DNA of 63,241 nt, filler included, from Kipferlia bialata (GCA_003568945.1; 7 parts of 7 records of this genome joined end to end with filler, not necessarily neighbours in it), one strand, 5' to 3'. Numbered from the whole stretch's first letter, positions 1-42,868 are shown. A program made the numbers and translations. Notes: a model not told the origin generated them from the sequence alone.

Positions 1-3000
1 AACCCATGACCCTGACGCTTGACCCCTCTTGACTCTGGTCTCCGTTGGTCAAGGTAGTGGCATCTGAGTGAAGAGGTTGGTACTCATTGGAACCTGCATC
101 AGTATTGATATATATTATCAAAGCACGCACGAGTACATTTCCTCACTTAGTATACTATTGATATACAGTTACTCATTAACAGCAGATAAATATAAATATA
201 TATATATAGTCCATATATATCTATATTAGAATATATATGTACTATTCCTCGCCATACCCTTGAGAGAGGCCTTGTTGGGGTTCGGTGTGACCTCTCCGCA
301 CAGGACCTTGATCAAGGTGCTCTTGCCTGGAGGTAGCCTTGTATATATGGTATATATATATATATTATACTATATTATATATTAATACATGTCTATATAT
401 ATAACCTTGATCAAGGTGCTCTTGCCTGGAGGTGACACGGATATATATATGTGTGAGTGTGGTATATATATATATGGTATACATAGAATATATATATGGT
501 ATATACATATGAATATATACATGTAATATGAGGTACACTAGATCTATACTATATGTATATATTAGCTAATATTTATATATATATGTACCTGTCCCATTGA
601 TGCCGCATAGTGCATGTACGACACCAGTGTATGTATTAGTACATGTATATATTACAGATACACTATACTATATACTATATATATGTGTGTATACATGTAC
701 CTGCCCCATTGATGCCGCACAGTGCATGTACCACACCATTGTATGTATTAGTACATGTATATATATAACGTATATATATATATTACAGATACACTATACT
801 ATATATATACATGTGTATGTATGTATATATACCTGCCCCATTGATACCACACAGTGCATGTACCACACCAGGGTCAAGGGTCAGATCAGCACCCTGGAGG
901 GCAAGGACCTGTGGTAAGGTGTATATATGGAGAGAGACAAACATACTATACTATATTTGTATATACAGAGAGAGAGAGAGAAAGGGAAGATCAGCACCCT
1001 GGAGGGCAAGGACCTGTGGTAAGGTATATATATATACATATACATATGTAATAATTTCTATATATATAGAGAGGGAGAGAGAGAGGGAGAGAGAGAAAGA
1101 GGGAAACTCAGCACCCTGGAGGGCAAGGACCTGTGGTAAGAGGTATACATACATATACATATATATAGAGAGAGAGATAGGGGAGGGAGGACCCTGGAGA
1201 GCAAGAACCCAGAATGAGTCAGATTGTGTGTATAGATTGAGATACTATAATTCACATAATGAGACACCGCATGTATACTATTGTATATAGTATATATATA
1301 GCCTCTAAACATCGTCAGAGTCACATGTACCCAGGCCCCCCATCTCAGCAATGATGTATGTTGGGTATACCTATATATGTATATATATGTGTGTGTGTGA
1401 CTTACAGTATCAGCTAATATATATAGACACTTTCGCACCTTATCCCCCTTCCTCAGGTTGAATGTCTTATAGACATTGGAGCATTGTATCAGGTTGGACC
1501 TGTCAGGCCGCTGGTGCATAGCGGAGTAGAAGCTAGAAGTAAGTATGTCTATACATATATCTATATTGGTATAGCACAATGTGGAATACTATTACTATAT
1601 ATATGTGTGTATTATGGTAGACTTGTCAGGCCGCTGGTGCATGGCGGAGTAGAAGCTAGAAGTAAGTATGTCTATACATATATCTATATTGGTACAGCAC
1701 AATGTGGAATACTATTACTATATGTATGTGTGTGTTTAAGATAGACTTGTCAGGCCGCTGGTGCATGGCGGAGTAGAAGCTAGAGGTCAGTTGATATATA
1801 GATTGAATACTTCTGATCTGGGGGTACCCATAGGAAAGATACAGATAGTTAAAGAGAAATGGATCTGTGCCACAACAAATAAGGTAAATAACATACCGTT
1901 TCATGAACGGGAACAGCAGTGGCAGCCCACGTGAACGGGGTCCTACGGGTGAGAGGATTTGTGTGTGGTCCGAGAGAGTATTAACGTGTATATACTTGAT
2001 CAGAAGACTACTACAGAGATGGATGTATACATATGTGTACATATTGTACTGGACTGACATGTGCGATGAACACGGCCAATATATATATATATGTGTATCG
2101 AAATCTACATGTGCAAATGGAACAAGAGACAGTAACACCTGTCCATACAATATACACACACACACACACACACACAGATATATACATATATATATATATA
2201 GGTACCTGGGCTGACATGTGCGATGTACACAGCCACTAGGGGCAGAACGAGACTCTGGAGGGCAGGAAGTACAAGAGCTGCAGTGAGATATGTGCCAGAA
2301 CACTATATTCATATGTAAATATATAAATGTATGTATATGTTGTAAGCAGTGCACATATATATGGACAGGAAGTACAACATCTGTGGTAAGGACACTTCAC
2401 TATTCTTATGAATACACGTATAGATAACTAAGAGATGCTGGCCGAAATGTGTATGTAGTATCTATCGTTCCGGCAATGCAGCGTAACACAACTTGCTAGA
2501 ATACAATCAGTATCAAGGATACATATACACTACAGAGTATATGTTCGAATCAGGGTATATTTGGATATATCCAAGAGCAGGATAAGACGTAAATGTATGA
2601 TGATGCACATAGATAGTGAATCACATATACCGCGAGATACACTGCGAGAGATGCCGCCAGATATACCTGTGTACCCTAGGTATGGCACAGTGTATGTGCA
2701 GGGTGTCGGTATGGGCTCGCCTGGGTATAAGTCAAGACAATACTTATACACGCCAGAAGAGAAAATGCATCACTATGATAAGAACACAATATTTTCCAAT
2801 ACTAATGTGTATTCAGTCGATGGGTATGGTATCATCGGGGGTTTGAGGTGGAAAGGCATCGACACTGTGCAACTGTATACTCCTACAATAGAGGTATATG
2901 GAGCATATGTATAGTTTGTGACTATGTACTGTACATAGATACCCCTACAGTAGACGTATATGAAGACAATGAAAACACTGACCTCGCCGTACCAGCTGCT

Positions 3001-6000
3001 GCTGGTAACACACATATATATATATTCCATTGAATACATATACATATATATATGTATACTTATACATGTGTATATACATTAATATGTATATACATATGTA
3101 TATAATATACACACACATATTTATATATATACATAGATTATATCACCTCTCTGGGGCAGCTGCTGCTGGTAGCAGTATCTCTTTGTGGTTGTGTAGTCAC
3201 TGACATCTGTGAAGTAGACAGAGTCGTCATAGAAGGGGCCGGAGGACTCACCCCATACATCCTACAAGTGAGTACACAGCGGGTATCTTACACACACACA
3301 CACACATAGAGAGAGAGAGAGAGAGAGAGGATGTGGTCATAGAAGGGACCGGAGGACTCACCCCACACATCCTACCAGTTAGTACATATTTCAATACATT
3401 ATATAGTTATACATATATATATGTATATGAGTGTATATTCAGAGAGTATATACATACATAATGGTAACCACACATGTGAGTGTATATAGAGTACACATAC
3501 ATACTGGATACCTTTGGAAGTAGCACTGTGAGTGTGGTGTAACTCTCAACCAGGGTGAGTGGGGGGAAGACAACACCCACGGCCCAGACTGGGGTGAGAC
3601 ACATATACCATAGAGACACGTCAACCTATAAACATATATAAGCACATATACTATACATTAGGATAGCATAGAGTACATACTATCTATATACCTAGAGGCC
3701 TTGGTAGGATAGAAGGGTCCCACACCCCTCCCTCCTGGAACATCTGCTGGAAGGCATACTGTAATACAGCTGGAGTGAGTGGAAGGATCAGTATACACAC
3801 TGTGTATATCTATATACTTATATGTATGTATGACTGGACCATCTGTTGGTAGGTATACCGAAACACAGATAGAGTGAGCCGATATGCGTACGTATGTAAC
3901 TCCACTGCATATGGAGCTAGAGGTAAAGTGTCACAACAAGTACAACAAGTACAATAGAGGAGGATATACAAAGAGAGTCATGACTAAGTAATTATGGAAG
4001 ACACCTGAGAGTATGCCAATGCCCACTGCCCATGACACAGCTCGTACTCTACATATATATATACTAATATATATATATATAAATATACTATATACAAACA
4101 GTGCCTCTAGTAATGTACCTGACAAGATGCCTATGCCCACTGCCCATGACACTGCCCTGGACAGAGTGTGGCACAGGGCACTCAGGATGATGGCAAAAGC
4201 ACAGTACGAAGAGGCCTAGGGTCAGTGATATTGAGTAACATCAGTATAATATGAGTAGAAGAGAGAGAGAGAGAGAGAGAGAATAAGAGAGAGAGAGAAT
4301 AAGAGAGAGAGAGAGAGAGAATAAGAGAGAGAGAGGCAGATGATGATGATGATGATGGCAAAGGCACAGTACGAGAGGCCTAGGGTTAGAAGAGAGAGGG
4401 TGGGATAGAGAGAGACGGGATGATGTGCCTGAAGCCCGAACATAATAAGCAGCACATCCACTGGCCTTTCACCCTCTCTCTCTCCCCCGTTCTCTCTATG
4501 TATGTGGGCAGCGTATCAATAGTATCTGCAACTGCGTGGTTATGAGAGCCAAAGCGATCAATAGTAACTGCAACTGATTGTACATGTCAGCCAAACTGGC
4601 TGATGAGCCATCATTCTCTCTCTCTGTGTATATACAATGTATTTCGTATCAATATGGTGTATATACTGATACCTGTAACCCGTAGAGACTGATGAACATA
4701 TCATCTAGCACCACTATATATACTACATACCATATACCATACACAATACACTATATACTATGACATATGTACCTGCAATCCAAACAGACTGATGAGCACA
4801 CCCAGTGACAGATATATATACTACATACCATATACAATATACTCTATACTATATACTATGCCATATATACCTGTAACCCGTACAGACTGATGAGCACACC
4901 CACTGACTGGCACCACTATATATATATACTCCATACCATATACCACATACAATATACTATATACTATGTTATACTGATACCTGTAAACCGTAGAGACTGA
5001 TGAGCACACCCAGTGACAGGTTGATGTCGGGGGTGATGCCAAGGAGGTATCTGATAGTTAGAGAGGGGGAAGCATAATGTAGAATATGGATATATATATA
5101 GTATATATGTAATGTATGTATTATACTATATACAGTATATGCTGATGTCGGGGTGATGCCAAGGAGGTATCTAAGAGTGAGACATAGGTTAGAAGGTATA
5201 CATATACTATATATACTATATATGCAATACTATATATACACTGAAGATATACAGGTTGATGTCCGGGGTGATGCCAAGGAGATATCTGGTAGTTAGAGAG
5301 GCATATTGTAGAGAGTCTACACTGTAAGTATGGGGGTGATGCCAAGGAGAGAGCTAGACGGTAAGACAGAGGTGAGTAGGTATCAATGCAGTAGACATCT
5401 GACTAGGCACATATATACTACATTGTTGTGGCAGTGTATATATATACATATATATATAGTATACAGTAGTATATACTCACCCAGATACAACCATCAGAGC
5501 TGTTGACACCAGACACAGTGGCAGTGTGACCAGCCACCAACCAATGTAGTGCTCCCACTCCTTGAGGCCTGGGAAGTGAGAGAGTATATATATAATGTCC
5601 TATACACTTCCTTGAGGCCTCGGAGAGAAGTGCGGATGTACGGAAGGAGAACAGAACTAATACACAGTATATCTAATACATGGCTAGATACTCGACACAT
5701 ATATATACCTAGAGCTCTCATGCTAACCAGTCTGAGGCCACGTATATATACTAAAGGTATTACATAATTAACTATATGCACTACATATTTGTATATATAC
5801 CTAGGGCTCTCATGCTAACCAGCCTGCCCCTCTCCGCTGAGGCCATATATATACTAGAGGTATTGCATAGTATATTATATTCACTTAATATGTGTANNNN
5901 NNNNNNNNNNNNNNNNNNNNNNNNNNNNNNNNNNNNNNNNNNNNNNNNNNNNNNNNNNNNNNNNNNNNNNNNNNNNNNNNNNNNNNNNNNNNNNNNNNNN

Positions 6001-7086
6001 NNNNNNNNNNNNNNNNNNNNNNNNNNNNNNNNNNNNNNNNNNNNNNNNNNNNNNNNNNNNNNNNNNNNNNNNNNNNNNNNNNNNNNNNNNNNNNNNNNNN
6101 NNNNNNNNNNNNNNNNNNNNNNNNNNNNNNNNNNNNNNNNNNNNNNNNNNNNNNNNNNNNNNNNNNNNNNNNNNNNNNNNNNNNNNNNNNNNNNNNNNNN
6201 NNNNNNNNNNNNNNNNNNNNNNNNNNNNNNNNNNNNNNNNNNNNNNNNNNNNNNNNNNNNNNNNNNNNNNNNNNNNNNNNNNNNNNNNNNNNNNNNNNNN
6301 NNNNNNNNNNNNNNNNNNNNNNNNNNNNNNNNNNNNNNNNNNNNNNNNNNNNNNNNNNNNNNNNNNNNNNNNNNNNNNNNNNNNNNNNNNNNNNNNNNNN
6401 NNNNNNNNNNNNNNNNNNNNNNNNNNNNNNNNNNNNNNNNNNNNNNNNNNNNNNNNNNNNNNNNNNNNNNNNNNNNNNNNNNNNNNNNNNNNNNNNNNNN
6501 NNNNNNNNNNNNNNNNNNNNNNNNNNNNNNNNNNNNNNNNNNNNNNNNNNNNNNNNNNNNNNNNNNNNNNNNNNNNNNNNNNNNNNNNNNNNNNNNNNNN
6601 NNNNNNNNNNNNNNNNNNNNNNNNNNNNNNNNNNNNNNNNNNNNNNNNNNNNNNNNNNNNNNNNNNNNNNNNNNNNNNNNNNNNNNNNNNNNNNNNNNNN
6701 NNNNNNNNNNNNNNNNNNNNNNNNNNNNNNNNNNNNNNNNNNNNNNNNNNNNNNNNNNNNNNNNNNNNNNNNNNNNNNNNNNNNNNNNNNNNNNNNNNNN
6801 NNNNNNNNNNNNNCATATATATACACTATGATACACAGGCCCAGCATGACAGCCATGGACTCAACCCTCATGTTTAGTTGTACATATGAAAATATATATG
6901 ATACTAATATGTACAAGGATATTAATACTATGACTTTACCTCATCGCGGGGGCTGCCGTGCTCTTGAGCTCTGGGAAGCCCTGCTATCAATATCAGTATA
7001 AGTGTCTACATAGTATGTATATGATATATAGTTATGATATACCCATATGATATGTAAAATGATATCTTGAGCTCTGGGAATCCCTA

Positions 7087-7118
<32 letters not shown>

Positions 7119-7469
7119 GACAACGCTATAATATATACTTGATACTGATACTGATACGAATACTGATACGTGAAGCCCCTGGTATCAGTATCAGAATCAC
7201 TTGTGAATTCAGATAGTGATACTGGTACAAAATTAGTAGATAATTTGTATTTGTACTTAATAACACACATGATACCTGGAACTCAGCGTCTATCCTGATG
7301 GTGTATAGATAGATATATAAAAAAATATGTAATATGATACTATGTATATGATGAGTATATGATATACCTGGAACTCAGCGTCTATCCTGACATCATGATA
7401 TGGTATATAGACATACATGTGATATATATATGATATACCTATATGAGATGTATAAGTATATATACAATA

Positions 7470-7512
<43 letters not shown>

Positions 7513-8216
7513 ACCTGGAACTCTGCGTCTATCCTGACATTGCCGATCACTCTGGCAATGGAGGACTCAATGGCAGTCTGGGAGTGAGCGATACAGGTAT
7601 AGATAGTATATATATATATATATATATATGTAGAGAGAGAGAGAGAGAGAGAGAGAATCCTAGCAATGGAGGACTCAATGGCAGTCTGGGAGTGAGGGTA
7701 CGTATATATGTATAGATAGTATGTATGTTTATATATATATATATGTATTTGTATATATATATGGAGAGAGAGAGAGAATCCTGGTATTGGCGGACTCAAT
7801 GGCTGTCTGAGGTGGGTACGTGATTGTATAGAAAGAGAGAAAGATAAAGAGAGGAAGATAAAGAGAGAGAAAGTGGATCTTAAGGTGGGGTGAGGTGATC
7901 TTAAAAGTGGATGTTGTATACGTCCTGGATATATGATATGCGTAACGCATGGATGTATCCACGTGCACTTGCATGCCTCTAAGACGAGCAGAAGAACACT
8001 AGAAATATATATTTATATGCTTACAAGTATAAAGAGTCTAAGAAGACATATATATGCATACTTATAGAGAGATAGAGGAACAATAGAATATGTAGTATCA
8101 CAATAGTATATATAGCACCTGTATCTGCATGCCCCGCCCTGTGTAGTGGTCTGGCCTTCCCACAGCCTGGGGGTCAAAGGAGATGCATATATTCACATAG
8201 GATGTGTATAAAGTAT

Positions 8217-8266
<50 letters not shown>

Positions 8267-10393
8267 CCTGTGTAGTGATCAGGCCTTCCCACAGCCTAGG
8301 GGTCAGAACAGAGTGGTATAGATGTCTACCACTAAGCCATGTCACATAACTACACGTTGACACTTCCACACAACAGAAAATGAATCAGATATGGCATTCA
8401 ACCCAAGCAATTCACGCATTGAAAAGTATACATTTGTATTCATATACGTATAGTATAATTGTATTCATATATTGCTGACCTAGAGCGTATCCTGAGTATA
8501 CTGCTGAGGTATAACAATCAAATGCGCAGTAAGTACACGTGTGTATACTAACATGTATGTACATATATATGGAAAGAGAGAGAGAGAGCACATACCTTGA
8601 TGAAGGGATCAGTCTCTGGCACCAGCACAGTGCTGGGGGTGAGAGTGGGTGATATATTTATATATATATATAGATAGATAGATAGATATAGATATAGATA
8701 TATATGTGTGTGATAATGAGTCTCTGGCACCAGCACAGTGCTGGAGGTGAGACACACACACATATATATATATGTACTGTGAGAGTGGGTCAGAGATATA
8801 TATATATATACTGTACTACTTGATATATACACACACACATATATATATATATATAAATATATAATGAACGTCTCTGGCACCAACACAGTGCTGGAGGTGA
8901 GGGAGATAGGGGTCATATGGGGATACTTATATATACACACATATATATACCCTCAATCTTCTATATACAAAACGAATACAACATGTGTAGAGTATAAATG
9001 AGTTGTGTAATCCCATATATACTATATATGACATACACTACAATTTACCTGTTGAATATTGCCGTGTATGACACCGAATGGTCACAATGTATTCATGTTT
9101 TCGATATATATGATCCCTTCCACATTCGTATTCTCACTAACTTCCATTTACAACATAATGTGAATTCACCATAATATACCTATTGAACTTTGCCGTGTAT
9201 GCGACTGAGTGGTCACTGTCGATGTCAAGGTGGACAGTCATCAGAGAGGGCAGCCAGGAGGGGGAGTGCTCCTAATATAAGGGGGGAGAGAGAGACCTGA
9301 GAGAGAGAGAGAGAGAGAGAACGATCATCAGAGAGGGCAGCCAGGAGGGGGCATGTGCCTGTGGTATGAGAGAGGGGGTGATGGGCAACATAGAATATAT
9401 ATACATTACACCACATCAACAATGAATCTTAGTCTTTACGACTCACATACCCCTATACTATTCTATGTGTGCATAATATAGTACGCAAATGTGTGAATGT
9501 TTATACTATATACCTCATAATAGTCACTGTTCATGCCGTATCTGGCCAGATTGACATAGACATTCAATTATTATATATTAATATATATATATATATATTG
9601 GTGAATACATATACTATCTATATATATACTATCTCTATATATATATACCTCATAGTACTCACTGTCCATGCCGTATCTGGCCAGATTGACATCAGTCTGC
9701 TCTAGGGGCATGTTGGGGTTGGTACCTGTCAATGAGATGGTATATATAGTATATGTAGTATATGTAAAATACACAGGATATAATTGGAGGGAACAAATGG
9801 TACGCACCCCTTGTCACTAACCGGAGAAATACATAGGTAATCATACAATACAATCAATAATGCATATAGGTTGTATTCAAATGGATGAATCTCAGTACGG
9901 TATATTGTACATATTATAATCTCCCTCAGTGACACATGGCATAATATTAATTATATTATATAATTCATATATATATATATATTTATATGAAATACATATT
10001 AGTGACTCCTCACCCTCAGTCACAAACAGGCCAATGTTGGGGTAGCGGTCAAGGTCATACTGATGGGTAAGGGAGAGGGGAAAGGAGGGAGAGGCATAGA
10101 GAGACTAGTAGTCTCATAATACATTGATATATATCACACAGATGTGTGTAATATCTATCCCAGTCAAGATGCAGCATGGTGTATATATTGATAGTATATA
10201 CAAATATATATACAACCACATACCACAAAAGTGTATATATATAAAACTATACCTGATCAAGATGCAGCACCGTGCCCTCCTCCCACCCGTTGTTCTGGAT
10301 CATGTCGTTGATGATCTGGACACCAATACCCTCTCCCTCTCCCTCTCCCTCTCCCTCTCCCAGTGTGTGGTCGTATATCTGGGGTCAGAGAGA

Positions 10394-10437
<44 letters not shown>

Positions 10438-10503
10438 CCTCATAGGCCATGGTCAGACAGGGATGGCCGGGGGCGCCTGTGATGGTATCTTGCCAGTGGT
10501 CTG
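1..10503 (-). CDS. ABCA-family ABC transporter, multi-exon, partial at both ends (extracellular domain, TM segments, start of NBD1)
   Basis: Hand-spliced minus-strand GT-AG exons: LIQCSNVYKTFNLRKGDK (~1437-1535) | VLALQGADLTLDPGVVHALCGINGAG (~831-910) | KSTLIKVLCGEVTP (~257-327), giving Walker A GINGAGKST, then ...GSSVRVMG (1-93). Upstream TM exons IPPWHHPDINLSLGVLISLYGLQ | ASSYCAFAIILSALCHTLSRAVSWAVGIGILS and the ECD exon QTAIESSIARVIGNVRIDAEFQ resemble the ABCA layout. Interrupted by an N gap at 5897-6813. Confidence 0.8.
587..1210 (-). repeat. Exon-fragment array around the ABCA Walker-A exon (3 upstream 5' fragments, full exon, 2 downstream 3' fragments)
   Basis: Plus-strand 'tcagcaccctggagggcaaggacctgtggtaag' at ~886, ~991 and ~1108, decayed at ~1190; 'acctg(c/t)cccattgat(a/g)cc..(t/c)agtgcatgtac' at ~587, ~699 and ~831. 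Confidence 0.9.
4670..5350 (-). repeat. Exon-fragment array of the ABCA TM exon IPPWHHPDINLSLGVLISLYGLQ
   Basis: Full exon ~4980-5050. 3' fragments with a GT donor at ~4672, ~4771 and ~4870; 5' fragments 'gggtgatgccaagga' at ~5150, ~5266 and ~5333. Confidence 0.85.
5897..6813. other. Internal scaffold gap (917 N)
   Basis: Run of N without the TTAATTAATTAA linker. Confidence 0.99.
7275..7810 (-). repeat. Exon-fragment array of the ABCA exon TAIESSIARVIGNVRIDAEFQ
   Basis: Full exon ~7514-7578; 5' fragments ~7660 and ~7780; 3' fragments with donor 'acctggaactc(a/t)gcgtctatcctga' at ~7275 and ~7366. Confidence 0.85.
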
Positions 10504-10601
10504 GAATGAGATAGGCATACAGGAAGAGAGAGCGCGAGAGAGAGAGAATAGTCAGAGACCGGTGATGGTGTCATGCCCGTGGTCTGGAGTCAGATCTATG
10601 C

Positions 10602-10655
<54 letters not shown>

Positions 10656-14000: not shown

Positions 14001-14147
14001 CACCTACGTACCTATGTGGCTGTTGGCAAATAGGGTCGAGGGTCTGTCACCATCCTGGGGAGTGAGAGAGTGAATAGAGTAAGAGAGTCTACCTCCAACC
14101 ATTCCCAGAAGTCCTCTGCGTCCTCTGTATTCATATATGTATACTTG

Positions 14148-14187
<40 letters not shown>

Positions 14188-15154
14188 AATATCATATGAT
14201 ACCCACCTCCAGCCACTCCCAGAAGTCCTCTGCGTCCTCTGGGTGCTCTCCGTCTCCATATGTGGATGTGACATAGACCAGGTGGGAGGAGAGAGGGAGG
14301 GTGTCCACATCCACATCAGCCACAGAGGTGACAGAGACGGAGATGGGGATGTCCTGGGGGGTGAGAGATATAATGGAGGGTTGAGAGTACATAGTAATCA
14401 AGGATACATATCAGAGTCTGATATGTTATCGGACAGAGGGAGAAATGGGAGTGTCCTGAGCGGTGAGACGGAGAGGGATATGTATATACTGGCACTGAGA
14501 CTATGTATAGTAGGATACATGAGTGACGCTATATGTAAAACATCCTGTACCTTACTCTTTGCCTCTGACTCTATCCTCTTGGCAACCTCCTTGTAACAAA
14601 CAATGTATATATCTATATAGATGATAGTGTATATATGCTATTCAGTACCTTACTCTTTGCCTCGGACTCTATCCTCTTGGCCACCTCCTTGGAGTTACCG
14701 GTCACAGTGGCGTAGACCACGGTCAGGAGGAGAGAAGAAGACACAGTCTGGGGTGGGGGGGGAAGGATGAGAGAGGGAGGGGGGGGGGGGTAAGGTAGAC
14801 ACAGTCTGGGGTGAACATGAGAGAGAAGCATGCATATAGACAGGGTGTGTGAAAGTCCAGTCACCATATAAGATGAGGGGGGGGGGGATGAAGTGAGAGA
14901 GCTCAGAGAGAGGCAGATCATGCGAGGAAGAGATAGAAGGTAGTGAGTCACTACCAGTGACAAGTTATAAAGTAGAGAGACGCTTGTAAAGGATAAGGAT
15001 GGGATAACGCATCATACACATACAAGTGTAAGGGACACTGTCACTCTGTGTAAGGGTCACACGTGACAGGAATATAGTACCAGTAGTAACACTGCTCTAT
15101 ATAAAAATCGGTGTGGATCTGACACCGATTTGGATACACCATGCCACTTACCAT
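11090..15154 (-). CDS. Diflavin (FMN/FAD/NADPH) oxidoreductase, CPR / CysJ / PNO C-terminal-domain-like, multi-exon, apparently complete
   Basis: Flavodoxin motifs VVYATVTGNSKEVAKRI (14650-14747), VYVTSTYGDGEHPEDAEDFWEWLE (14205-14280) and VFGLGDSSFSMFCESAVQVDERL (13620-13693). FAD motif RLYSIASSP (~12175-12210), then GLCTGYL and LVGLGCGVAPFR. NADPH domain AFSRDQPQKIYVTHRMKED..YCGPSG. Ends RGLMVLEAW* (TGA at 11090-11092). Probable start is a 3-nt exon ATG|gtaagt at 15152-15154. Confidence 0.88.
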
Positions 15155-16702: not shown

Positions 16703-16751
<49 letters not shown>

Positions 16752-20534: not shown

Positions 20535-20573
<39 letters not shown>

Positions 20574-23130: not shown

Positions 23131-23166
<36 letters not shown>

Positions 23167-24380: not shown

Positions 24381-24413
<33 letters not shown>

Positions 24414-30400: not shown

Positions 30401-32088
30401 CTCACAGGTTTTCATCCAATGTGATATAAGCCAGTATTGTCTATTAACTAGTACATTGACACCCAGGCCCTGAAGCAGCTGTCGGAGTGGTCACTGCCAC
30501 CAGGGGAGAGTGAGAGGTATCGGAATTATTGTATAGATGTAGATATCAATTCTATGATCAATGGTTCGTTCAGTGCACATATTACAGATCCTGCCACCAC
30601 GGGAGAGTGAGAGGTGTGGCATTTGCCGCATTTCACACAATATTGTAGATACCAGTACTAGTGAGCTCATTCTTGTTCTTCAGATTATATATGTAAGTAT
30701 ATATATCCCTAACCCCAGCATCACTGTCTACATGGCATCCTTCCAGGGCTATATGATTGTGGTAGGACTGCTGTTCCTGGCGAGAGACGTCACAATCAGC
30801 ATGACAGGTGTATTCATTATTATATATATATATACATGTGTGAATATATACATTCATTATATATGTATATATATATATTCATTATTCAGTATTATGTATA
30901 GTAGTGTACTATATTGTGTATTACAGTGTATATATGTGTTAACCCCAGGTGTGAGCTATGCCCGCAGTGTCTACAAGCGCCTTGTCCGTTCCACCTTCTT
31001 CGCCAGTCTCGACTCATACTGCACAGGTATTTACATTCATATACACACATGTATATATCCCAGTAGCAGTAGCAGTATATTCATGTGACTATACGTATAT
31101 AGTACTGACACGCTCCACCTTCTTTGCCAGTCTCGACTCATACTGGACAGGTATGAGAGAACGTATATGTACTACTATCAGTATCACCGTGGCAATATAA
31201 TTGGAGTAAATGTACCAAATATGTACTACATATAACACCAGGTGGGGGTGACCCCGATGCCTCCAAGCCAGAGAGGACAGTCAGGGGGATACCAATCAGG
31301 TATGAATGGTATTTGTATATATAGGCGTGATATTTGTATATATAGGCGTATGGAATGGTCCTATCAGGGATAGTGCACTGAATGTGTTCTGTCACAAATA
31401 TTCCTGGCTGACCCTTCAGGATCCTCCGCTTTGTCTCTGAGGACATTGCAGAGAACCTCGGCAGGGGACCCGGGCCAGGTACACATCTCTCTCTCTCTCT
31501 CTCTGTCTGTCTATGCATATCATCCCTCTCTATATTCATATAGTTCTCACCCCCAGCCTCCTCCGTCATCACAGCATGTCCTACTTAATGCCTATCACTG
31601 CAATATTTGGCCGTGCCTTTTATACAAATGTAATTATGTGTATGACTTACCCTTAGCCTACTCCGTCATCATTGCTGTCTCTAGGGCTGCTATCACGGCC
31701 TATCTCATCATCGAGTCCCTGCCATTCTGGAGGACGGCATCCCTGCTCATGAACCTCAGAAACAGGTACAGTTACCATACATATACAGTTCGGATGAACC
31801 TCAGAAACATGTATACTATATACTATATGTACTATTAGTAAGTATATGGTACTATTTGAGAGTACTATTGGAGGACTACATCCCTCCTCATGAACCTCAG
31901 AAACAGGTACATTTACTATATCTATTTACAGTATTCTTCCATATTTGGCAATAGTTCCTCTGTTGTTGCTGAGACTGTTTGTCCTTGTTTGTGTATGTGA
32001 CCTCACCTCCAGCCTTCTGTTTGCGGGTCCCATCACCATCCTCATGGCCATACCCCTGTACATTGCATCCAACACAGCACACAAGAAG
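21641..32088 (+). CDS. Divergent ABCC/MRP-type transporter (TMD1, degenerate NBD1, TMD2), partial at both ends
   Basis: Spliced exons: ARQSLFSESVESLQSIR | MQSLEDDVLSQLGLLWRKE | ... AYTQSLQRLQLFFS (end of ABCC TMD1). NBD-fold exons NPIACGFDLTVRKGDRVGIVVGENTK, PYILP|GTVLENVCMG and TIQLARTLCHRPDLVIVK. TMD2 exons GVSYARSVYKRLVRSTFFASLDSY and PIR|ILRFVSEDI. Confidence 0.75.
28405..28950 (+). repeat. Exon-fragment array of the exon KSSMSVLRLAPVSMEPEYK (spans an N gap at 28451-28549)
   Basis: 'gtgtccatggagccagagtacaaggt' at ~28611, ~28725 and ~28830, short remnant at ~28937; 5' fragment at ~28405. Confidence 0.85.
29581..29591 (+). promoter_or_regulatory. Representative fused branch point / 3' splice site (CTCACCCCCAG)
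   Basis: The motif YTNACC(C)CAG precedes most inferred exons (plus strand ~21631, ~24511, ~29417, ~29771, ~30709; seen as ctggggtgag/ctggggttag for minus-strand genes). Confidence 0.85.
29856..30336 (+). repeat. Five tandem copies of the exon 3' end (S)TLEIVLIVGIVLSLALTTVE plus GT donor
   Basis: Copies end at 29918, 30014, 30145, 30241 and 30334, each followed by GT. Confidence 0.95.
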
Positions 32089-32089
32089 G

Positions 32090-32141
<52 letters not shown>

Positions 32142-32241: not shown

Positions 32242-32291
<50 letters not shown>

Positions 32292-33629: not shown

Positions 33630-36600
33630 TCAGTCTACATAGTCTAGATAGGACCCAGGCTGGGTTGACAGGGTGTCTCTGCCAAGGGCCCTGATATCAC
33701 ATGGACATGCATGTTATTATATAGGGAATGGTATAATGTATTGAGACAGAGAGAGAGAGCTTAGGCTGGGATGACAGGGTGTCTCTGCCAAGAGCCCTGA
33801 TATTAGTGGATATAGAGATATATATAGAGAGAGGGACAGTACCTCAATAGTGTCATAAGTGACCCATCTGTGTCACACCGGCCTATGAGGGTATTGTCCC
33901 TGACCTTCGGTGAGGCAGTGACGACACATGTTGAACATGAAATCCCACAATTGAATAGATATCCCCTCGCTCTCATGTATACTGTATATGTATATATATG
34001 TATGCTGTGGAAGAGCAGGCACGGGCATAACAATAAATTATTATGTATGTGTATACATAAGTATATACACGCAAGTGCATACACTATACCTCCACCACGG
34101 GTTCCCATCAATATAACACTGTCATACGTATATATAATAGCATACATATATATACTTTGATACATATATATATATATATATATACCCATACTATCACCAC
34201 GGGTTCCTTTCCCTGTGCCCTGTGAGACGCAAGTATGTATATATGTATATATATATATATAGATATACACCATACCTCCACCACTGACTCCCCTCCCTGT
34301 CCCCCTGAGACATGGCCTCTCTCTCGCCTGGGGGGTAAGAGGTATTCACATCAGTATATACAATATAGGCATGTATAATATATACTATATACATGAGTGT
34401 ATATATATATGTAGGAATATGTATATACATGTCCCCCTGAGACATGGCCCCTCTCTCGCCTGAGGTAAGGGGTATATGTATTACTATATACAGTAATATA
34501 GAGTACATCATATGGTATACATATATACGTGTATTACTACATGTGCCCCTGAGACATGGCCTCTCTCTCGCCTGAGGGGTGAGTAGAAGTACTACATGTA
34601 TAGGTATTCTGTAGGTATTCTATATACTAATGTATGCGTACATATATATGTAGGAATATGTATATTCATGTCCCCCTGAGACATGGCCTCTCTCTCGCCT
34701 GAGGGGTGAGTGAATGAATGTATACTAATATGTATTCACAGTATACATTCGCCTGATACGTGAGTATAGGTATACAGTATGTATACTATATACATATATT
34801 AATGAGTACATATATAGGTAGATATATGTATATACCTGTGCACATCTGCGGCTGTGTCCGTGGGTCTCCTCTTGCTGCCTGGGTATAAGGGTAAAGGTAC
34901 TCATAACTGGATCCAAATCATATACAGATACAGAGGAATCTGAGTGTATATACACATACCCGGTGGAAAATTCCCCTATTGCTAACATATATGAATAGAT
35001 AGACATCACTCAAACGTAGTAAATATTTATACATTTACATATATTCCTCACCTGGTGGTACAGTGAGCGAGTCCTGTATCCTACCCCTCTGTGCCAGTCT
35101 AACTACCCTGGTATCAACGTATAGTGAACGGAAGACCGTATATACATCAGGGGGTATATATACCTACTGAGCCGTCTCTCTATCTGTTCCTTGGAGTTGT
35201 TGGGGGGTAGGGACGCTATGCCCCTGTTATCGGAGGGAATGGCACGGCCTGGCCTGACAATAAGGGTGTAGAAGGAGAGAGAGAGAGAGAGATAGAGAGG
35301 TGTGTGGCTCCAGCACTCCAGCATATAGAGAAATACACTTACACTATATTATACACTCACTTGTATACATACATACTCTTATAGTATACGGCATACTCAC
35401 TTAAGAGGTATATATTCCTATACAATATGGATAGATATCTTAATATTTAAGTAAATACGTTACAATAATACATTTCAATACACTACATAGACACAATATA
35501 CATACTTTAGAGCTGCCACTATCCCCTGTATCTCCAGGGGCGTGGGTGCAGCACTCCGGGGCAGATATACATATAGGGTATATACATTTACGAATATACT
35601 ATATATATACAACNNNNNNNNNNNNNNNNNNNNNNNNNNNNNNNNNNNNNNNNNNNNNNNNNNNNNNNNNNNNNNNNNNNNNNNNNNNNNNNNNNNNNNN
35701 NNNNNNNNNNNCAATGCCCTGTATCTCCAGGGGTGTGGGTGCAGCACTCCAGGGCAGATATACATACACTATATATACATATATGCCTATACACTGTATA
35801 TATACTCACTTCAGAGCTGCCACTATGCCCTGTATCTCTAAGGGTGTGGGTGCAGCACTCCAGGGCAGGATGCAGACAGGGAAGCCAGACATCTCTACAC
35901 GCCTCTCGCCTATCGAGTAAGAAGAGTGGTATAGGGATACATTCAACTGGGTATACATGGTAAAATTACATGTATATATACTATACACGTGTATGATGCA
36001 CACGGGGAAGCCAGACATCTCCACACGCCTCTCGCCTATCGAGTAAGAGTAGGAATGCGAATAATGAGTATCGAATATTCATGTATACGTATACATACAT
36101 GAAGTAGATATAAAAGTCAGACATCTCTACATTAGAAAAGACAGAGAAACAGTTATTGATGGGATATCGCCTATCGTGTATGCATTTCTATATCCATATG
36201 TTTGTAGACATATTTACCTTGGAATGTATCCTCTGCCGACCTGCGCTCAGGTGACAGCACCAGTATATGTATACACCACTACCGTGTGCATATAGTGATA
36301 TATATAGTGATATATATAGTAATAGAGTACACACACCTTGGAATGTGTCCTCTGCCGACCTGGGCTCAGGTGACAGCACCAGTATGTGGGGTCTACTGGT
36401 GTGTGTGTCATGAGGGCTATTGAGGGCATCGGACATCTGGGGTGAGGGTATGTACATACAGACAGCACAGAATGTGTACACAATACCCCAATATTCATAA
36501 ATGTGAATGAGAAGTGGTACTTGAATGTGTAGGTATACATATATATACATATATGTATATATAGTATATACCTCCTGCTCCACCACTGACTGCAGCCACA

Positions 36601-37137
36601 GGTCCATGGCCTCTACACCCTTATTAAGGTCATGGCCTGAGTTAGTATAGACATTTTCATCTATATATATGAGAATGTATTAGAAACTGTCATGATACAT
36701 ACTAAAACATGCATATCGTCATGGATTCTACAGTATATATGAAAATAGTATAGTATATATATCATATCCATACCCATAGCAGTCTGCTCCAGCTGTCGTG
36801 GACATGCCCTCATGTGCACTACTAGCTCGGTCTTGCCACTAAAGGGTAAGAAATACTATCAATATACAAGTAGAGAGACACAGAGAGAGAGAGAGAGAGG
36901 GAGGGAGAGAGAGAGGTTCATGTAGCTCAGTCTTGTCACTGGTATAAGTATATTACATCTTACTATTAGTTAATGTCTATAGTATGGAGTGTAACACTAT
37001 ACATGTCTCACATGTGCACAACAGTCTTGCCACTAACGTGTAAGAAGTATGAGGGATGGGTAAAAACGTATATATAACACGTCCTCATGTGCAAAACCGT
37101 TAGAGCTTAGAAACTATATCACGGAATATCAATATAC

Positions 37138-37190
<53 letters not shown>

Positions 37191-37282
37191 CTCATGTGCA
37201 TCACCAGCTCAGTCTTGCCACTAATTGGTAGGGTATACTTCTAAGTATTATAATAGATGAGAGGATATGAAAATAAGGGTGT

Positions 37283-37320
<38 letters not shown>

Positions 37321-37761
37321 ACTGCCCTGATGAAGGTGTATGCCTCTCCAGAGTATTTATATTGTGTACATACATACATACACACTGGTATATATGTATG
37401 TGTATATATATATATACACATACACACCTGCTCTGGTGGAGGTGTCTGCCCCTCCTGAGTTCACACCAGTCAAAGGCTGGGGTCAGACGTCAAGTACAAT
37501 ATATGTATATATACATATATATACAAGTACAATATATACAATGTATATATATATTTATATGTATATATATGTATATGTATATAGTCTCCTGAGTTCACAC
37601 CAGTCAAAGGCTGGGGGTCAGACAACAAGTATTATTATACATATAGTATATATATAGTATATACATACACACACATATATATAGGCATCTGCTGAGTTCA
37701 CACCAGTCAAAGGCTGGGGGTCAGACAACAAGTATTATACAAATATAATTATATATATACA

Positions 37762-37792
<31 letters not shown>

Positions 37793-39156
37793 GGCATCTG
37801 CAGAGTTCACACCAGTGAAAGGCTGAGAGTAAGGGCATTACGGAATACATATTCACTGAAATAACAATACACGCATATGTATATACATATATATAATATA
37901 AACATAATTATATATAGGCATCTGCTGAGTTCAGGCTGGGGGTGAGGTCACTAAGGAGAAGGAACAGAAACAGAGCTTAGTGCATGTATATGGCGAACTA
38001 TCACGACAGAAGGTTAGATCCATAAAGTCACTATAGGCCATACTATGTACATCTCTCTAACAGTAATCCCTACCTCTGCTCCCCTCGTCTGCCGCCTTCC
38101 TTAAGGAGTTCATATATATCCATTTTACATATTCAATGGTATACATATACACATAGCAATGCCAAGTACCTCTGCTCCCCTCGTCTGCCGTTGGGACGTA
38201 CTGGGGCACCCTGAGGTGAATACAGATATATGTGTGTAAGGCAAATTATTATATGTATATATACACGACTATACAATACAGAGTATAGAGTATACTATAT
38301 GTTGGGACGTACTGGGGCACCCTGGGGGTGAGTATGTGTTGATATGTATTCACACACATATATATATATGGCTATATAGTAAATACGACCACGACCAGCA
38401 TAGGCCAGTAAATGTGTATATACATACACCAATCATTTATCCTACAATACCTCAGTACTCCTGATAAGGCAGTGTCGCACCTACATACAGAGCACATGAC
38501 AGGTGGGGTATATGTATATATACATATGATAACCAATGTATATACATACATATATATGAGTATATACTATGCCTAAGTACACCAGAGAGTGCTGCCTCAC
38601 ATCCTCCATACACTGCACATGACAGGTGGGGTATAGTATATGTATCAACGTATAAATAGTATATATGAATATATGAATATATACTATGCCTAAGTACACC
38701 AGAGAGTGCTGCCTCACACCCCCCATACACTGCACATGACAGGTGGGGTATAGTATATGTATCAACGTATATATATACATATAGTATATATACTATACCT
38801 AAGGACTCCTGATAAGGCAGCTTCACACCCCCCATACACAGCACATGACAGGTGGGGAATGGTATACATACTACGTGTATATAGTATATGTATGGTGGGT
38901 TTTACCTGAGGACTCCCGATAGAGCAGCTTCACATCCTCCATACACTGCACATGACAGGTGGGGTATTTGTATATATACATATGACAACCATTGTATATA
39001 TACATACATTAGTAGTATATATGAATATATACTATACCTAAGTACCCCAGACAGTGCAGCTTCACACCCCCCATACACTGCACATGACAGGTGGGGTGGG
39101 TGGGGGGTACCCTGGGGGGCAGACAGAAAGGCCTCTCTAGTGTGAATAAAGGGTGT

Positions 39157-39195
<39 letters not shown>

Positions 39196-40690
39196 GAGGG
39201 GTACCCTAAGGGGCAGACAGAAAGGCCTCCCTAGTGTGAAGAAAGGGTGTAGGGAGAGAGAGAGAGAGAGAGAGAGAGAGCAGGTGGGGGGTACCCTGGG
39301 GGGCAGACAGAAAGGCCTCCCTGGTATTAGAAAAGGGTGTAGGGAGAGAGAGAGAGAGAGAGAGAAGTTGACGGGTACCCTGGGGGGCGGACAGAAAGGC
39401 CTCCCTAGTGTGAATAAAGGGTGTAGGGAGAGAGAGAGAGAGAGAGAGAGAGGGCGGGGGGAGAGAAAACCCCACCATACAGAGGAATGCACATTGGAGA
39501 ACAAGTGCTATAGATATACCTAGCGAATGCGACAGCCGCTGTCAGTACGGTGTCCCTGGCTGGGAACTCTCTCTCCCTATAAGTATATGCACAATATATA
39601 AATGTACATACATGTACTATAGTTATGTATACCTTGCGAATGCAACAGCCGCTGTTAGTACGGTGTCCCTTGCTGGGAACTCTCTCCTGCTACCACCAAA
39701 GTAGACACAGTCCAGTACTAGTGTATTGCATTCAGCCTGAGGGTTAGAAGATGAATACTTATAATAATATATCTGCATACTTATGTATGTATATATATAT
39801 ATGTATACTAATTTGATAACGCCAAAGCAGACACAGTCCAGTACCAGGGTGTTACACTCTGCCTACTGGTTAGAACTCAAATACTACAGTCCAATACCTG
39901 TGTGTGTTATACACACACTCTCTACCATATATATATATATATATATCTATATGACTATAATACTCACCTTGACCACTTTCAGTGCCTCCTGGATGTGTGA
40001 TATGACCTGGGGGTGAGGGTAAGTATGGATCATGTATCTAACTCGTAATAACAAAGATAGTACCACAACAAGCAATACAAATATCATACATTCTAGTAGA
40101 ACACCAACCTGGCTGTCTCCGGCCAGGGATGGTGGCATGATATATGTATCAATGTCCATACCCATATATATGAATGCACGTATATGCATATACGCATGAA
40201 CCCACCTGGCTGTACATACTCATATACACATATATACATATATTAATCTAGGTGCACATACGCATGTACCCACCTGGCTGTCTCCGGCCAGAGAAGGTGG
40301 CAGGTACACACAGGCCTGGATGGTTAGATTGAAGTGTGTAAATGACAATATCACCATAAGTATAATAGTAATAATATATCATGTACACACAGGCCTGGAT
40401 GGTTAGGCTATGAAACACAGAACTGGACAAACACTAAGAGTATTGAGAGAAAGAGCAAATCATATAATATACCTGGTAATTGTGCCCTAATCTACGTGTA
40501 TCTGTCTCTCTCTCCCATAGTACAATCATGGCTGAGGCACCCAATACTACTATGTATATACTAATTATATATAAACATATATGTATGTATAGTACCTGAT
40601 AATTATGCCCCAGCCTCCTAGTGTCTGTCTCCCTCTCCCACAACACAACCATGGCAGAGGCACCAACATAATAAGAATAGTAAACTACTT

Positions 40691-40721
<31 letters not shown>

Positions 40722-41437
40722 TCATGTATACTATATAGTATATAGTACCTGATAGTTATGTCCTAATCTACGTGTGTCACTCTCCCTCTCCCATAATACA
40801 ACCATGGCTGAGGCACCAACAAAGGTGCGCTTGGCAGGTACACAGAGAACCTAAAAGTAAGGGCAGATACATATAATGTATAGAGAGAGAGAGAGAGAGG
40901 CAGAGGTCCGCTTGGCTGGCACACACAGGACCTTGGGGTAAAGAGAAGAGAAAGAGAGAGAAAGAGAGAGAGAGAGAGAGAGTGGTAGAGGCCCCGACGA
41001 CGGTACGCTTGGCAGGAAAGAACACATAAGACCATAAGGTTTGTGTGTATGTATATACAGATTCATATATGTATGAAGAGAGAGAGGGCGAGAAAGAGAG
41101 AGAAAGGTGTGCTTGATAGGGACACAATTCACCTAAACCCGAAACACTACATACACCATAGTCCATAGTATGTAGATATCATAAGTATACCTTGATAGTG
41201 TGTCTGCCCTGTGATATGGCCACTGGTATATAAGGTATTACTATTAAATATACACACTATATACAAGTACATCTAAAGTAATGTACAATACCTTGATTGT
41301 ATGTCTGCTCTGCGATATGGCCACTGGGGTTTATGAGCAGACACACACCANNNNNNNNNNNNNNNNNNNNNNNNNNNNNNNNNNNNNNNNNNNNNNNNNN
41401 NNNNNNNNNNNNNNNNNNNNNNNNNNNNNNNNNNNNN

Positions 41438-41471
<34 letters not shown>

Positions 41472-42060
41472 TCACCTTAATTGTATGTCTGCCCTGGGAT
41501 ATGGCCACTGGGGTGATGGGCTGGTGCAACCTGGGGGGTGAGGGATAGAGGGTATAAACAGGGACAGAGATAGACACGTTCAAACTAGGAGTGACCAAAT
41601 AGAAAAGACATAAAGAATAGCTACATAATTGTTGTGGGCTGATGCTTCCTGGGGTGTGAGATATATATACATTCCAAAAAATGAGATAGAGAGAGAGGTC
41701 ATATTCTAAGACCATATCTACCCAAGATGTTCCTCTTTATAGTGATATTTGGAGTAGAGAGTAATAGAGTAATATAGTGTAAACATATTGTACTGCATGT
41801 TCTATTAATATTGAGTATAACTGAACACTGGGGCAGCCTTGAGGTTCCCGTGTCTAATATATATATACATATTGTATATAGAATATATAGTATATATATA
41901 CATAAGTATGGTAGTATACTGCATACACACTAGGAATTAATGCTATATATAGTAAAAATACTATACCTGAACACTGGGGCAGCCTTGAGGTACCCGTGTC
42001 TCCCACCCATGTACTGCACTGCAAACTCAGGGATGACAACATCTCTTAGAGTTAGTATGA

Positions 42061-42097
<37 letters not shown>

Positions 42098-42149
42098 ATG
42101 TACTGTACTGCGAACTCAGGGATGACAACATCCCTAATGATAAGTAGGA

Positions 42150-42183
<34 letters not shown>

Positions 42184-42627
42184 AGAGAGAGACTATGTAC
42201 TGTACAGCAAACTCAGGTATCACTACATCTCTAGGGTAAGAGGTATTATATAGATTAGGAGGGGGAGAGAGAGAAAGAGAGGGATAATTCTGGGTACTGC
42301 ACAGCAAACTCAGGGATCAATACAACTCTAGAATAAGATATACGGATTTGGAGAAGAGAGTATAATGCTTCACTACATACAAATGTACCATTACATATAT
42401 ACATGTATATACGTATATACATATATATATACCTGTTAATATCCAGGTTTGGGCATGCCCTCTTGACCAGGGCGGCATCAGAGTACAGTACAAAGGCAGC
42501 ACCCTCCTCAGTCTGACAATAAGGGTGTAGAGGGAGAGGGAGGGAGAGACAGTGAGAGAGAGAGAGATAGAGAGAGATGGGTACAGAACAAAGGCAGCAC
42601 CCTCCTCAGTCTGACAATAAGGGTGTA

Positions 42628-42663
<36 letters not shown>

Positions 42664-42868
42664 CTCTGTGTCAAAGTCCATGTCCATCATGGAGTCTGTG
42701 GTACAGTGATAGAGTATAGAGTATAAATGATGCACTTTTTACTCATATATTTAGTATATAATAATAATACACTTGTATGTATATAATTGTGTATCAATAC
42801 CTCTGTGTCAAAGTCCACGTCCATCATGGAGTCTGTGGCATGGGAGCCAAGGGGGGCAGAGGGGATCT
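33630..42868 (-). CDS. SNM1/PSO2/Apollo (DCLRE1)-like metallo-beta-lactamase/beta-CASP protein with degenerate catalytic motifs, 5' partial
   Basis: Spliced exons in the expected order: SHATDS (HxHxDH position), AFVLYSDAALVK, IK|VLCVPAKRTFVGASAMVVLWE (ANHCPG position), NTLVLDCVYFGGSRREFPARDTVLTAAVAFAR (LYLDTTY..FP.Q..V) and VCILPWSAAPTPLEIQGIVAALK|PGRAIP (IPYSEHSS..EL..FV..L.P..IIP). The family call is by motif spacing only. Confidence 0.62.
37427..37940 (-). repeat. Array of 5' fragments of the exon AFDWCELRRGRHLHQS
   Basis: Plus-strand 'gagttcacaccagtcaaaggctgggggtcag' at ~37457, ~37591 and ~37694; variants at ~37803 and ~37927. Confidence 0.88.
38450..39412 (-). repeat. Nine-unit exon-fragment array (3 x 5' fragment, full exon, 5 x 3' fragment) of EAFLSAPQGTPHPPHLSCAVYGGCEAALSGVLR
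   Basis: Full exon ~39037-39138; 5' fragments ~39198, ~39285, ~39373; 3' fragments ~38904, ~38797, ~38689, ~38571, ~38450. Confidence 0.95.
40470..41135 (-). repeat. Exon-fragment array of the exon VLCVPAKRTFVGASAMVVLWERESDTRRLGHNYQ
   Basis: Full exon ~40749-40850; 3' fragments ~40594 and ~40471; 5' fragments ~40900, ~41000 and ~41105. Confidence 0.9.

What the first reader, a model, noticed from the sequence alone, without database searches (positions are those of the whole stretch)
587..42868. Candidate new system: polarised exon-fragment arrays that diverge at synonymous sites although they look unspliceable
SEEN: in the five main genes of the first four contigs (ABCA, reductase, F-BAR, ABCC, SNM1-like), many exons sit in tandem arrays. 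Copies of [acceptor + 5' part of exon] lie upstream and copies of [3' part + GT donor] lie downstream, separated by poorly conserved microsatellite spacers. A fragment lacks one splice site, so it should be neutral intron DNA, yet its differences from the full exon are overwhelmingly synonymous. KNOWN: neutral pseudo-exons accumulate mostly non-synonymous changes, because about three quarters of random coding changes are non-synonymous. INFERENCE, four models: (a) deletion or unequal crossing-over between the direct repeats repeatedly rebuilds an intact chimeric exon, so every fragment passes through selection; (b) fragments are captured from synonymously diverged alleles; (c) fragments reach mRNA by non-canonical, repeat-guided joining; (d) the assembly stacked several haplotypes in tandem. 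I am not aware of a description of this pattern but could not search the literature.
Basis: partly seen in the sequence, partly recalled or inferred. Interest (0 to 1): 0.92.

Follow-up and report, generated by a model that had tools for sequence, protein, structure and literature searches.

The report
Half-exon arrays archiving other alleles
In a free-living protist, about half the exons of five genes are flanked by dead half-exon copies that the assembled mRNAs of two genes skip, yet the copies differ from the working exons mostly at silent positions, likely because recombination with very divergent working alleles keeps rewriting them.

Summary
Confirmed. The organism is Kipferlia bialata. 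I found 137 half-exon copies; 59 of 113 exons in the five genes carry them, and all 137 are polarised. They differ from the full exon at 27.8% of fourfold sites but 3.6% of zero-fold sites (dN/dS 0.14, CI 0.10-0.21). A neutral copy beside a selected exon gives about 0.5, not 1. On contig 2, assembled RNA uses only the full exons, and one DNA contig crosses a four-copy array at normal depth. Polarity follows from duplicating a splice junction, as in human CBS 844ins68. The copies are decaying: they carry indels and stops, and their amino-acid changes look random. Their silent differences are mosaic, clustered and unrelated to spacer age. In simulations, exchange within one lineage never went below 0.43. 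Exchange between chromosomes in a population with about 15% neutral diversity gave 0.13-0.16. Best reading (0.55): arrays refreshed by unequal exchange and conversion from divergent working alleles. No second isolate was available, so the diversity is untested. The scan met this geometry before in a sea urchin, without the excess.

The parts
3..10595 (-). ABCA-like transporter gene (name from recalled motifs), interrupted by a scaffold gap; 34 half-exon copies on 16 of 22 modelled exons
583..1209 (-). Exon 833-908 with three 5' copies (981-1025, 1108-1140, 1188-1209) and two 3' copies (695-738, 583-630)
4667..5349 (-). Exon 4981-5050 with three 5' and three 3' copies; two more decayed 3' copies below the threshold at about 4420-4625
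11090..14813 (-). NADPH-hemoprotein (diflavin) reductase gene, P0002; 6 copies on 3 of 18 exons
13694..14011 (-). RNA-supported 318-nt intron that skips two intact decoy acceptors (copies 13772-13807 and 13888-13919); both score higher than the acceptor used
15419..21124 (-). B-box-like/coiled-coil/SH3 protein gene, P0001 (KIPB_005765 as named by the tool); 14 copies on 8 of 18 exons
18293..18822 (-). Exon 18293-18403 with four 5' copies. All four agree against the exon at four consecutive silent sites; one copy's spacer is nearly identical to the exon's. Crossed by one DNA contig and skipped by the RNA contig
21641..32088 (+). Divergent ABCC-like gene (name from recalled motifs), open for 1091 codons; 36 copies on 17 of 34 exons
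29781..30340 (+). Exon 29781-29918 with four 3' copies, three sharing breakpoint 68 and one at 76; 36 silent and 7 replacement differences
33630..42866 (-). SNM1/Artemis-like gene (name from recalled motifs); 46 copies on 15 of 21 exons
38447..39416 (-). Largest array: exon 39038-39136 with three 5' and five 3' copies. The four inner 3' copies carry 25 silent and 0 replacement differences and are mosaics of each other; the outermost has 4 replacements and a 1-base deletion
41816..42329 (-). Exon 41967-42044 with three 5' copies (11 silent, 2 replacement differences) and one 3' copy
47478..51877 (-). Sec31-like gene, low-density control: two copies (47478-47508 and about 51845-51877) among 33 exons
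62436..63021 (-).

Best explanation
The half-exons are tandem duplicates of splice junctions that the assembled mRNAs of two genes skip, and they likely stay protein-like because unequal crossing-over and short gene conversion between different chromosomes would keep rewriting them from working alleles that are highly divergent at silent sites. Step 1 (geometry, shown): duplicating [intron end + acceptor + 5' exon part] always leaves the fragment upstream, and duplicating [3' part + donor + intron start] leaves it downstream. Step 2 (shown for the main transcript of two genes; mechanism inferred): splicing picks the acceptor and donor nearest the exon body even when a decoy is as strong. This is exon-definition-like, and it makes such duplicates tolerable. 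Step 3 (shown): a fragment decays neutrally once dead. Step 4 (inferred): a seeded unit is amplified, lost and patched by mispaired exchange with the exon or fragments of another chromosome. Incoming exon sequence has passed selection, so it brings silent differences and erases replacements. Step 5 (inferred from simulation): this needs background neutral diversity near 0.1-0.15 and exchange several hundred times the per-base mutation rate per array. Fornicates lack NHEJ and Rad51A and keep two Dmc1 paralogues, which may favour exchange between mismatched sequences (lead only).
For: Fourfold 27.8% against zero-fold 3.6%; a neutral copy passed through the same pipeline gives a ratio of 0.51-0.58. 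Fragments differ from each other in the same way: 159 of 422 against 73 of 1432. Two phases are visible. Zero-fold changes lean GC-to-AT (32 vs 13) while fourfold changes are symmetric (53 vs 56; p=0.013). GC at fourfold sites is 0.600 in fragments, 0.605 in exons and 0.37 in introns. Replacements are not conservative (p=0.80), and 12 of 137 fragments have indels. Silent divergence is uncoupled from unit age: in the 23 of 195 unit pairs with recognisably related spacers, spacers differ by 10.3% but fourfold sites by 27.4%, and rho is 0.00 over 117 pairs. Silent differences cluster (86 adjacent pairs vs 68.2 +/- 5.2), and units are mosaic. Breakpoints are often shared within arrays, and outermost units are the most decayed (zero-fold 6.9% vs 3.8% proximal, p=0.019; middle 1.8%). 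Copies co-occur on both sides of one exon (25 vs 18.2, p=0.003) but not within one intron (19 vs 18.6). A simulation with exchange between chromosomes and theta 0.15 gives 26.4% and 3.8%, ratio 0.13-0.16 in 4 of 4 seeds. It also gives, without being fitted to them, 10.6% young-spacer pairs with 24.9% fourfold divergence; observed values are 11.8% and 27.4%. Precedents: junction duplication skipped in splicing and proposed as a conversion template (PMC2630376); crossovers prefer exons in a hypervariable fungus (PMC4209137).
Against: No divergent allele was seen. Neither run shows other letters on contig 2, and no second copy of P0001 or P0002 turned up (all weak searches). No second isolate was found. 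The required diversity is at the level of the few most polymorphic species known (PMC9187340). Theta and exchange rate were chosen by me to fit two numbers. The fitting run does not reproduce the clustering (ratio 1.03 vs 1.26 observed; the sister-only runs gave 1.17-1.24). It also misses the higher fourfold divergence near the splice site (26.0% vs 29.6% near the break; observed 34.7% vs 21.6%), and it shows only a weak proximal-distal contrast. The predicted rise of zero-fold divergence towards the breakpoint is in the right direction but not significant (2.6% to 4.5%, p=0.11). The 23 young pairs were selected for similar spacers, which lowers their spacer figure. Reading frames are RNA-checked for two of the five genes only.
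Confidence: 0.55

Rival explanations
1. Same exchange process, but the donors are diverged copies inside one lineage (homeologues of a hybrid or polyploid, or long-separated homologues of an asexual diploid) rather than alleles of an outcrossing population.
For: It needs no extreme population diversity. A few deep donor lineages would give the clustered tracts seen. K. bialata is reported as likely diploid, with 51 Mb and 17,389 genes against 24 Mb and 8,300 in Carpediemonas membranifera.
Against: No second copy was found for two genes. 17 of 63 variable fourfold sites in multi-copy arrays show three or more states, more than two donors plus 3-4% decay should give. The largest array has at least three sequence classes.
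Confidence: 0.17
2. Fragments are under direct selection because a minority of transcripts or non-inherited DNA copies use them, through non-canonical joining or frequent local conversion, as with silent donor cassettes.
For: Zero-fold divergence is lower than spacer divergence even between fragments (2 of 95 vs 29 of 300). Most splice dinucleotides are intact (AG 54 of 62, GT 50 of 59). 25 of 40 joints were not displayed, and contigs drop rare forms. The spliceosome is reduced and no snRNA candidates were found (PMC6679479).
Against: The main RNA contigs equal the full-exon models to the base and show no other letters. Switch points are at chance level and replacements are not conservative; fragments carry 2 stops and 12 indels. 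About 34 of the 40 joints are expected introns (my count from the models).
Confidence: 0.12
3. Recycling within one lineage: deletion or sister exchange between the repeats rebuilds the exon often enough that all fragments pass through selection.
For: Shared breakpoints and mosaic units show that units do exchange. Sister-only simulations reproduce the clustering.
Against: The ratio was 0.43-0.79 in all 12 sister-only runs, and 0.65-0.77 with exchange between chromosomes at low diversity. Fast turnover erases silent divergence too (5.8% fourfold at the highest rate).
Confidence: 0.06
4. Working exons mutate several times faster than their intronic copies (break-prone, error-prone repair), selection keeps only silent changes, and fragments are snapshots.
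For: Some differences are exon-only, such as four consecutive silent changes at 18392-18403. Fourfold divergence exceeds spacer divergence in young units.
Against: There is no ladder with distance (fourfold 29.5% proximal, 35.5% middle, 31.0% distal). Only 11 of 63 variable fourfold sites are exon-only. Clusters of purely silent random hits are improbable.
Confidence: 0.06
5. Assembly artefact: haplotypes stacked in tandem.
For: The assembly has many gaps, and one repeat pair is identical across a gap (28396-28435 and 28565-28604). X1 may be the source of the window, so it is not independent.
Against: One 3829-nt DNA contig crosses 16760-20522 with 0 other letters at depth 451; its neighbours are at 320-464. 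Up to five mutually divergent copies with unique spacers, stops and indels exceed what two haplotypes can supply.
Confidence: 0.03

Closest known systems
Human CBS c.[833C; 844_845ins68] (PMC2630376, passages read)
   Same: A duplicated intron/exon junction. Splicing uses the distal site and skips the upstream exon piece, giving normal mRNA. The dead piece is proposed as a gene-conversion template between chromosomes.
   Different: It is a single polymorphic event whose dead piece carries a missense change. Here there are 136 copies on 59 of 113 exons, up to 5 per side, biased to silent differences.
Internal gene duplication and tandem-duplication intron gain (Gao and Lynch 2009; Rogers 1989; seen only as cited in PMC4974935)
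   Same: Short tandem duplications inside genes that end up as intron sequence.
   Different: No new intron is made, and AG|GT switch points are at chance level. No silent-site bias is described in the passages seen.
Concerted evolution of tandem copies by interlocus gene conversion and unequal crossing-over (general knowledge; reviews seen as search listings only)
   Same: Mosaic units, shared breakpoints and decayed outer units.
   Different: Only one copy is expressed, the unit is half an exon of about 33 bases, and exchange appears to diversify silent sites rather than homogenise them.
Tandem mutually exclusive exons such as Dscam (search listing only; otherwise recalled)
   Same: Tandem exon-like copies with low dN/dS.
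   Different: Those copies have both splice sites and are expressed. 0 of 137 copies here span an exon.
Exon-biased crossing-over in hypervariable Schizophyllum commune (PMC4209137, passages read)
   Same: Recombination between genotypes 14% apart falls in exons; events here are exon-centred.
   Different: Those are allelic, equal crossovers, and no fragment arrays appear in the passages seen.
Silent donor cassettes of antigenic variation (recalled, no call)
   Same: Unexpressed partial copies that keep coding character.
   Different: Targets here are housekeeping genes, the variation is silent, and flow appears to run into the dead copies.

Membership tests
Skipped splice-junction tandem duplication (CBS 844ins68 type) | Copy holds one splice site plus the adjacent exon part, in tandem | tested here: met
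   69 of 73 upstream copies reach the exon's 5' end and 61 of 64 downstream copies its 3' end; AG kept in 54 of 62 and GT in 50 of 59
Skipped splice-junction tandem duplication (CBS 844ins68 type) | mRNA skips the copy and uses the site next to the full exon | tested here: met
Concerted evolution by gene conversion / unequal crossing-over | Mosaic, tract-like sharing of variants among copies | tested here: met
Concerted evolution by gene conversion / unequal crossing-over | Copy-number and sequence polymorphism among chromosomes | not testable with these tools
   one sample only; no second isolate
Capture from divergent alleles | Working alleles about 20-25% apart at fourfold sites exist | tested here: inconclusive
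   none seen on contig 2, but contigs drop variants and there is one sample
Mutually exclusive tandem exons | Each copy has both splice sites and is found in mRNA | tested here: not met
   0 of 137 copies span an exon; none in the main RNA contigs
Rogers-type intron gain by AGGT duplication | AG|GT inside the duplicated exon part, used as new splice sites | tested here: not met
   10 of 137 against 7.4% by chance
Silent donor cassette system | Directed transfer from silent copies into the expressed site, with selected protein variation | tested here: inconclusive
   replacements look random and decaying; rare transfer cannot be seen in contigs
Neutral pseudo-exon | dN/dS to the parent exon of 0.5 or more | tested here: not met
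   0.14, CI 0.10-0.21, against 0.51-0.58 simulated

The most novel reading that the evidence does not exclude
Kipferlia introns hold a genome-wide archive of other individuals' alleles: Dmc1-only, mismatch-tolerant exchange confined to exons continually writes working allele sequence into skipped half-exons and back, so that one genome records cryptic sex and hyperdiversity, and exons with arrays are more polymorphic than exons without.
Probability: 0.4. Interest if true: 0.88.

Novelty: new variant of a known kind. Interest (0 to 1): 0.72.

Why it matters
If right, one genome gives a read-out of exchange between chromosomes and of population diversity in a free-living fornicate, a group where sex is argued mainly from gene inventories (recalled). 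It would place K. bialata among the most polymorphic eukaryotes. It also shows a protist with introns of about 75 bases passing over intact, equally strong decoy splice sites, which points to exon definition in a reduced spliceosome. The arrays are a ready-made test set, since every copy is barcoded by silent variants. In practice, such copies can mislead gene finders: my first models took several as exons. A low dN/dS in an intronic copy also need not mean hidden expression.

Tried and rejected
Insertion of a whole exon into the middle of the old one, which would make 5' and 3' fragments abut: 5 of 25 exons abut within 3 bases against 2.5-3.4 expected (p=0.08-0.22); rejected as a general rule. 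Detection bias as the cause of the silent excess: simulated neutral copies through the same pipeline stay at 0.51-0.58. Weak decoy sites as the reason for skipping: the decoy scores at least as high as the used site in 31 of 62 acceptors and 29 of 59 donors. Search for a second gene copy: none; the 50%-cluster library cannot show one. No whole genome was held, so no genome-wide count was possible. No listed run is on record as RNA; X2 is treated as RNA because its 15 displayed joints all have intron ends. Simulations: one search used too small a population, so fragments saturated; the conversion runs had a slicing error and crashed on it; only one search is used. Literature searches that found no description of this pattern. 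Supplements were not opened, and subscription papers are not in the library. Look-ups of earlier findings by place and by sequence were empty.


Full report
Setting. The window joins seven scaffolds of an intron-rich eukaryote. Two exons match database proteins named Kipferlia bialata at 100%. The genome paper for this species reports 51 Mb, 124,912 GT-AG introns and two k-mer peaks read as diploidy (PMC5874029; I read parts 1-2 of 6 and passages). Its main text has no hit for 'duplicat'. No whole genome was held, so all counts come from this window.

Gene models. Fifteen RNA-supported introns trained a simple exon finder, which I then curated by coordinates. All frames are open: reductase 580 aa, SH3 gene 738 aa, ABCA-like 196 + 341 aa either side of a gap, ABCC-like 1091 aa, SNM1-like 483 codons. 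The first two equal P0002 and P0001. The other three are unverified by RNA, and the ABCC-like model needs one intron ending in AT. 127 of 140 exons end in AG.

The observation. 138 copies passed the threshold, and one was dropped as a gap overlap. All 137 are polarised, median length is 33 bases, and 59 of 113 exons in the five genes carry copies. Fourfold sites differ at 27.8% and zero-fold sites at 3.6%; dN/dS is 0.14 (0.10-0.21), and the pN/pS ratio is 0.08-0.26 in each of the five genes. The correct single-lineage null is about 0.5, and simulation through my pipeline gave 0.51-0.58. The excess survives that correction.

Real DNA, not in the main mRNA. On 11000-20900, run X1 has long contigs with 0-1 other letters at depths 320-464. 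One of them, 3829 nt long, crosses the four-copy array at 18293-18822. X1 may be the window's source, so this shows consistency rather than independent support. Run X2 behaves as spliced RNA: all 15 displayed joints (of 40) have intron ends and no other letters are listed. Its record coordinates leave exactly the modelled exon length, 1360 nt in the reductase and 932 nt in the SH3 gene. Thirteen copies lie in those stretches and are skipped. Contigs cannot show rare isoforms, and contigs 1, 3 and 4 have no read-level check.

Why polarised, and why tolerated. Duplicating a junction can only leave a 5' piece upstream or a 3' piece downstream; other internal duplications would damage the mRNA (inference). 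The decoy sites are mostly intact: AG in 54 of 62 and GT in 50 of 59. They score at least as well as the used site in about half of cases, including 8 of 19 in the two RNA-checked genes. Position decides, not strength: the pair closest to the exon body is used. I read this as exon definition; removal of mis-spliced RNA by surveillance is an untested alternative. Human CBS 844ins68 is the same geometry as a single event (PMC2630376, passages).

Two phases of divergence. Replacement changes look like decay. They lean GC-to-AT, are no more conservative than random, and come with 2 stops and 12 fragments with indels. They are highest in the outermost units. Silent changes look as if they arose in working exons: they are symmetric, keep exon-like GC at fourfold sites, and are as frequent between fragments (37.7%) as between fragment and exon (35.9% at the same sites). 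They are clustered, mosaic and unrelated to how alike the neighbouring spacers are. Arrays often share one breakpoint, so the units diverged after truncation, when none of them could be translated. Sequence that had passed selection must therefore have been written into them later (inference).

Which process can do that. I simulated one selected copy plus 1-3 dead copies with mutation, unequal exchange and conversion (four seeds each). Exchange within a lineage gave ratios of 0.43-0.79. Exchange between chromosomes at theta 0.02 gave 0.65-0.77, at theta 0.1 gave 0.16-0.40, and at theta 0.15 gave 0.13-0.16 with 26.4% and 3.8%. The dead copies act as a reservoir and raise diversity in the exon above background (0.23 against 0.15). 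I chose theta and rate to fit. The young-spacer figures were not fitted and agree; the clustering and the fourfold gradient are not reproduced. Diversity above 0.1 is known in few species (PMC9187340, passages), and in one of them crossovers favour exons (PMC4209137, passages). Fornicates lack NHEJ and Rad51A and have two Dmc1 paralogues (PMC8516963, passages). Dmc1 residues stabilise mismatched base triplets (PMC6719624, abstract only). That link is a lead, not a test.

Against. No divergent allele or second copy was seen, and no second isolate was found. The donors are inferred. A hybrid or polyploid source and a hidden minor use remain open.

Earlier findings and print. A note on a sea-urchin gene reports the same geometry with 43 of 107 silent differences, which fits the single-lineage null (e1-9861148; not checked by me). 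The present case differs in exceeding that null. Seven paper searches found no description of this pattern; supplements were not opened.

Verdict. The feature is real and statistically strong. It is a known kind of duplication at an unusual density, with a silent-site excess that ordinary decay does not explain. The best mechanism is refreshment from divergent working alleles (0.55), or 0.72 if in-cell divergent copies are counted as donors. Novelty: new variant of a known kind. Interest: 0.72.

Noticed in passing
window 23990-24060 (+): The ABCC-like frame stays open only if this exon starts at 24002 after a branch-point-like tract ending in AT instead of AG: a non-canonical acceptor, a recent lesion or an unmodelled micro-exon.
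   Followed up: partly
window 23688, 25442, 28066 (+), 42045, 33905 (-), 26067 (+): Several modelled acceptors end in AAG or GAG rather than YAG; not RNA-checked.
   Followed up: no
all modelled genes: 127 of 140 exons end in AG and 99 of 140 following exons start with G: an unusually strong AG|G junction context, with the branch-like motif about 5-9 bases from the acceptor.
   Followed up: partly
window 4420-4625 (-): Two heavily decayed copies of the 3' part of exon 4981-5050, below the score threshold; older copies are therefore undercounted.
   Followed up: partly
window 27739-27900 (+): Both 3' copies carry an AGY serine codon where the exon has TCA, a multi-step silent switch.
   Followed up: no
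window 38567-38749 (-): Two neighbouring copies share a GC in place of the GT donor and are nearly identical on the donor side, while each resembles a different unit elsewhere.
   Followed up: yes
window 28396-28435 and 28565-28604: Identical 40-base pair on both sides of a scaffold gap; probably an unmerged overlap, excluded from counts.
   Followed up: yes
window 21641-32088 (+): The ABCC-like protein has a degenerate first nucleotide-binding motif region (recalled consensus) and may be catalytically altered.
   Followed up: no
window 46755-53273 versus contigs 1-4: Array density differs strongly between genes: Sec31-like 2 of 33 exons and reductase 3 of 18, against 15 of 21 in the SNM1-like gene; GC-richer contigs have fewer.
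   Followed up: partly
window 54500-60100 (+): A long intron-bearing region with different composition and no self-repeats; gene not identified.
   Followed up: no
window 13305-13345 (-): An exon-like stretch ending in a strong donor inside RNA-supported intron 13244-13378 matches no neighbouring exon; possibly a relic.
   Followed up: no
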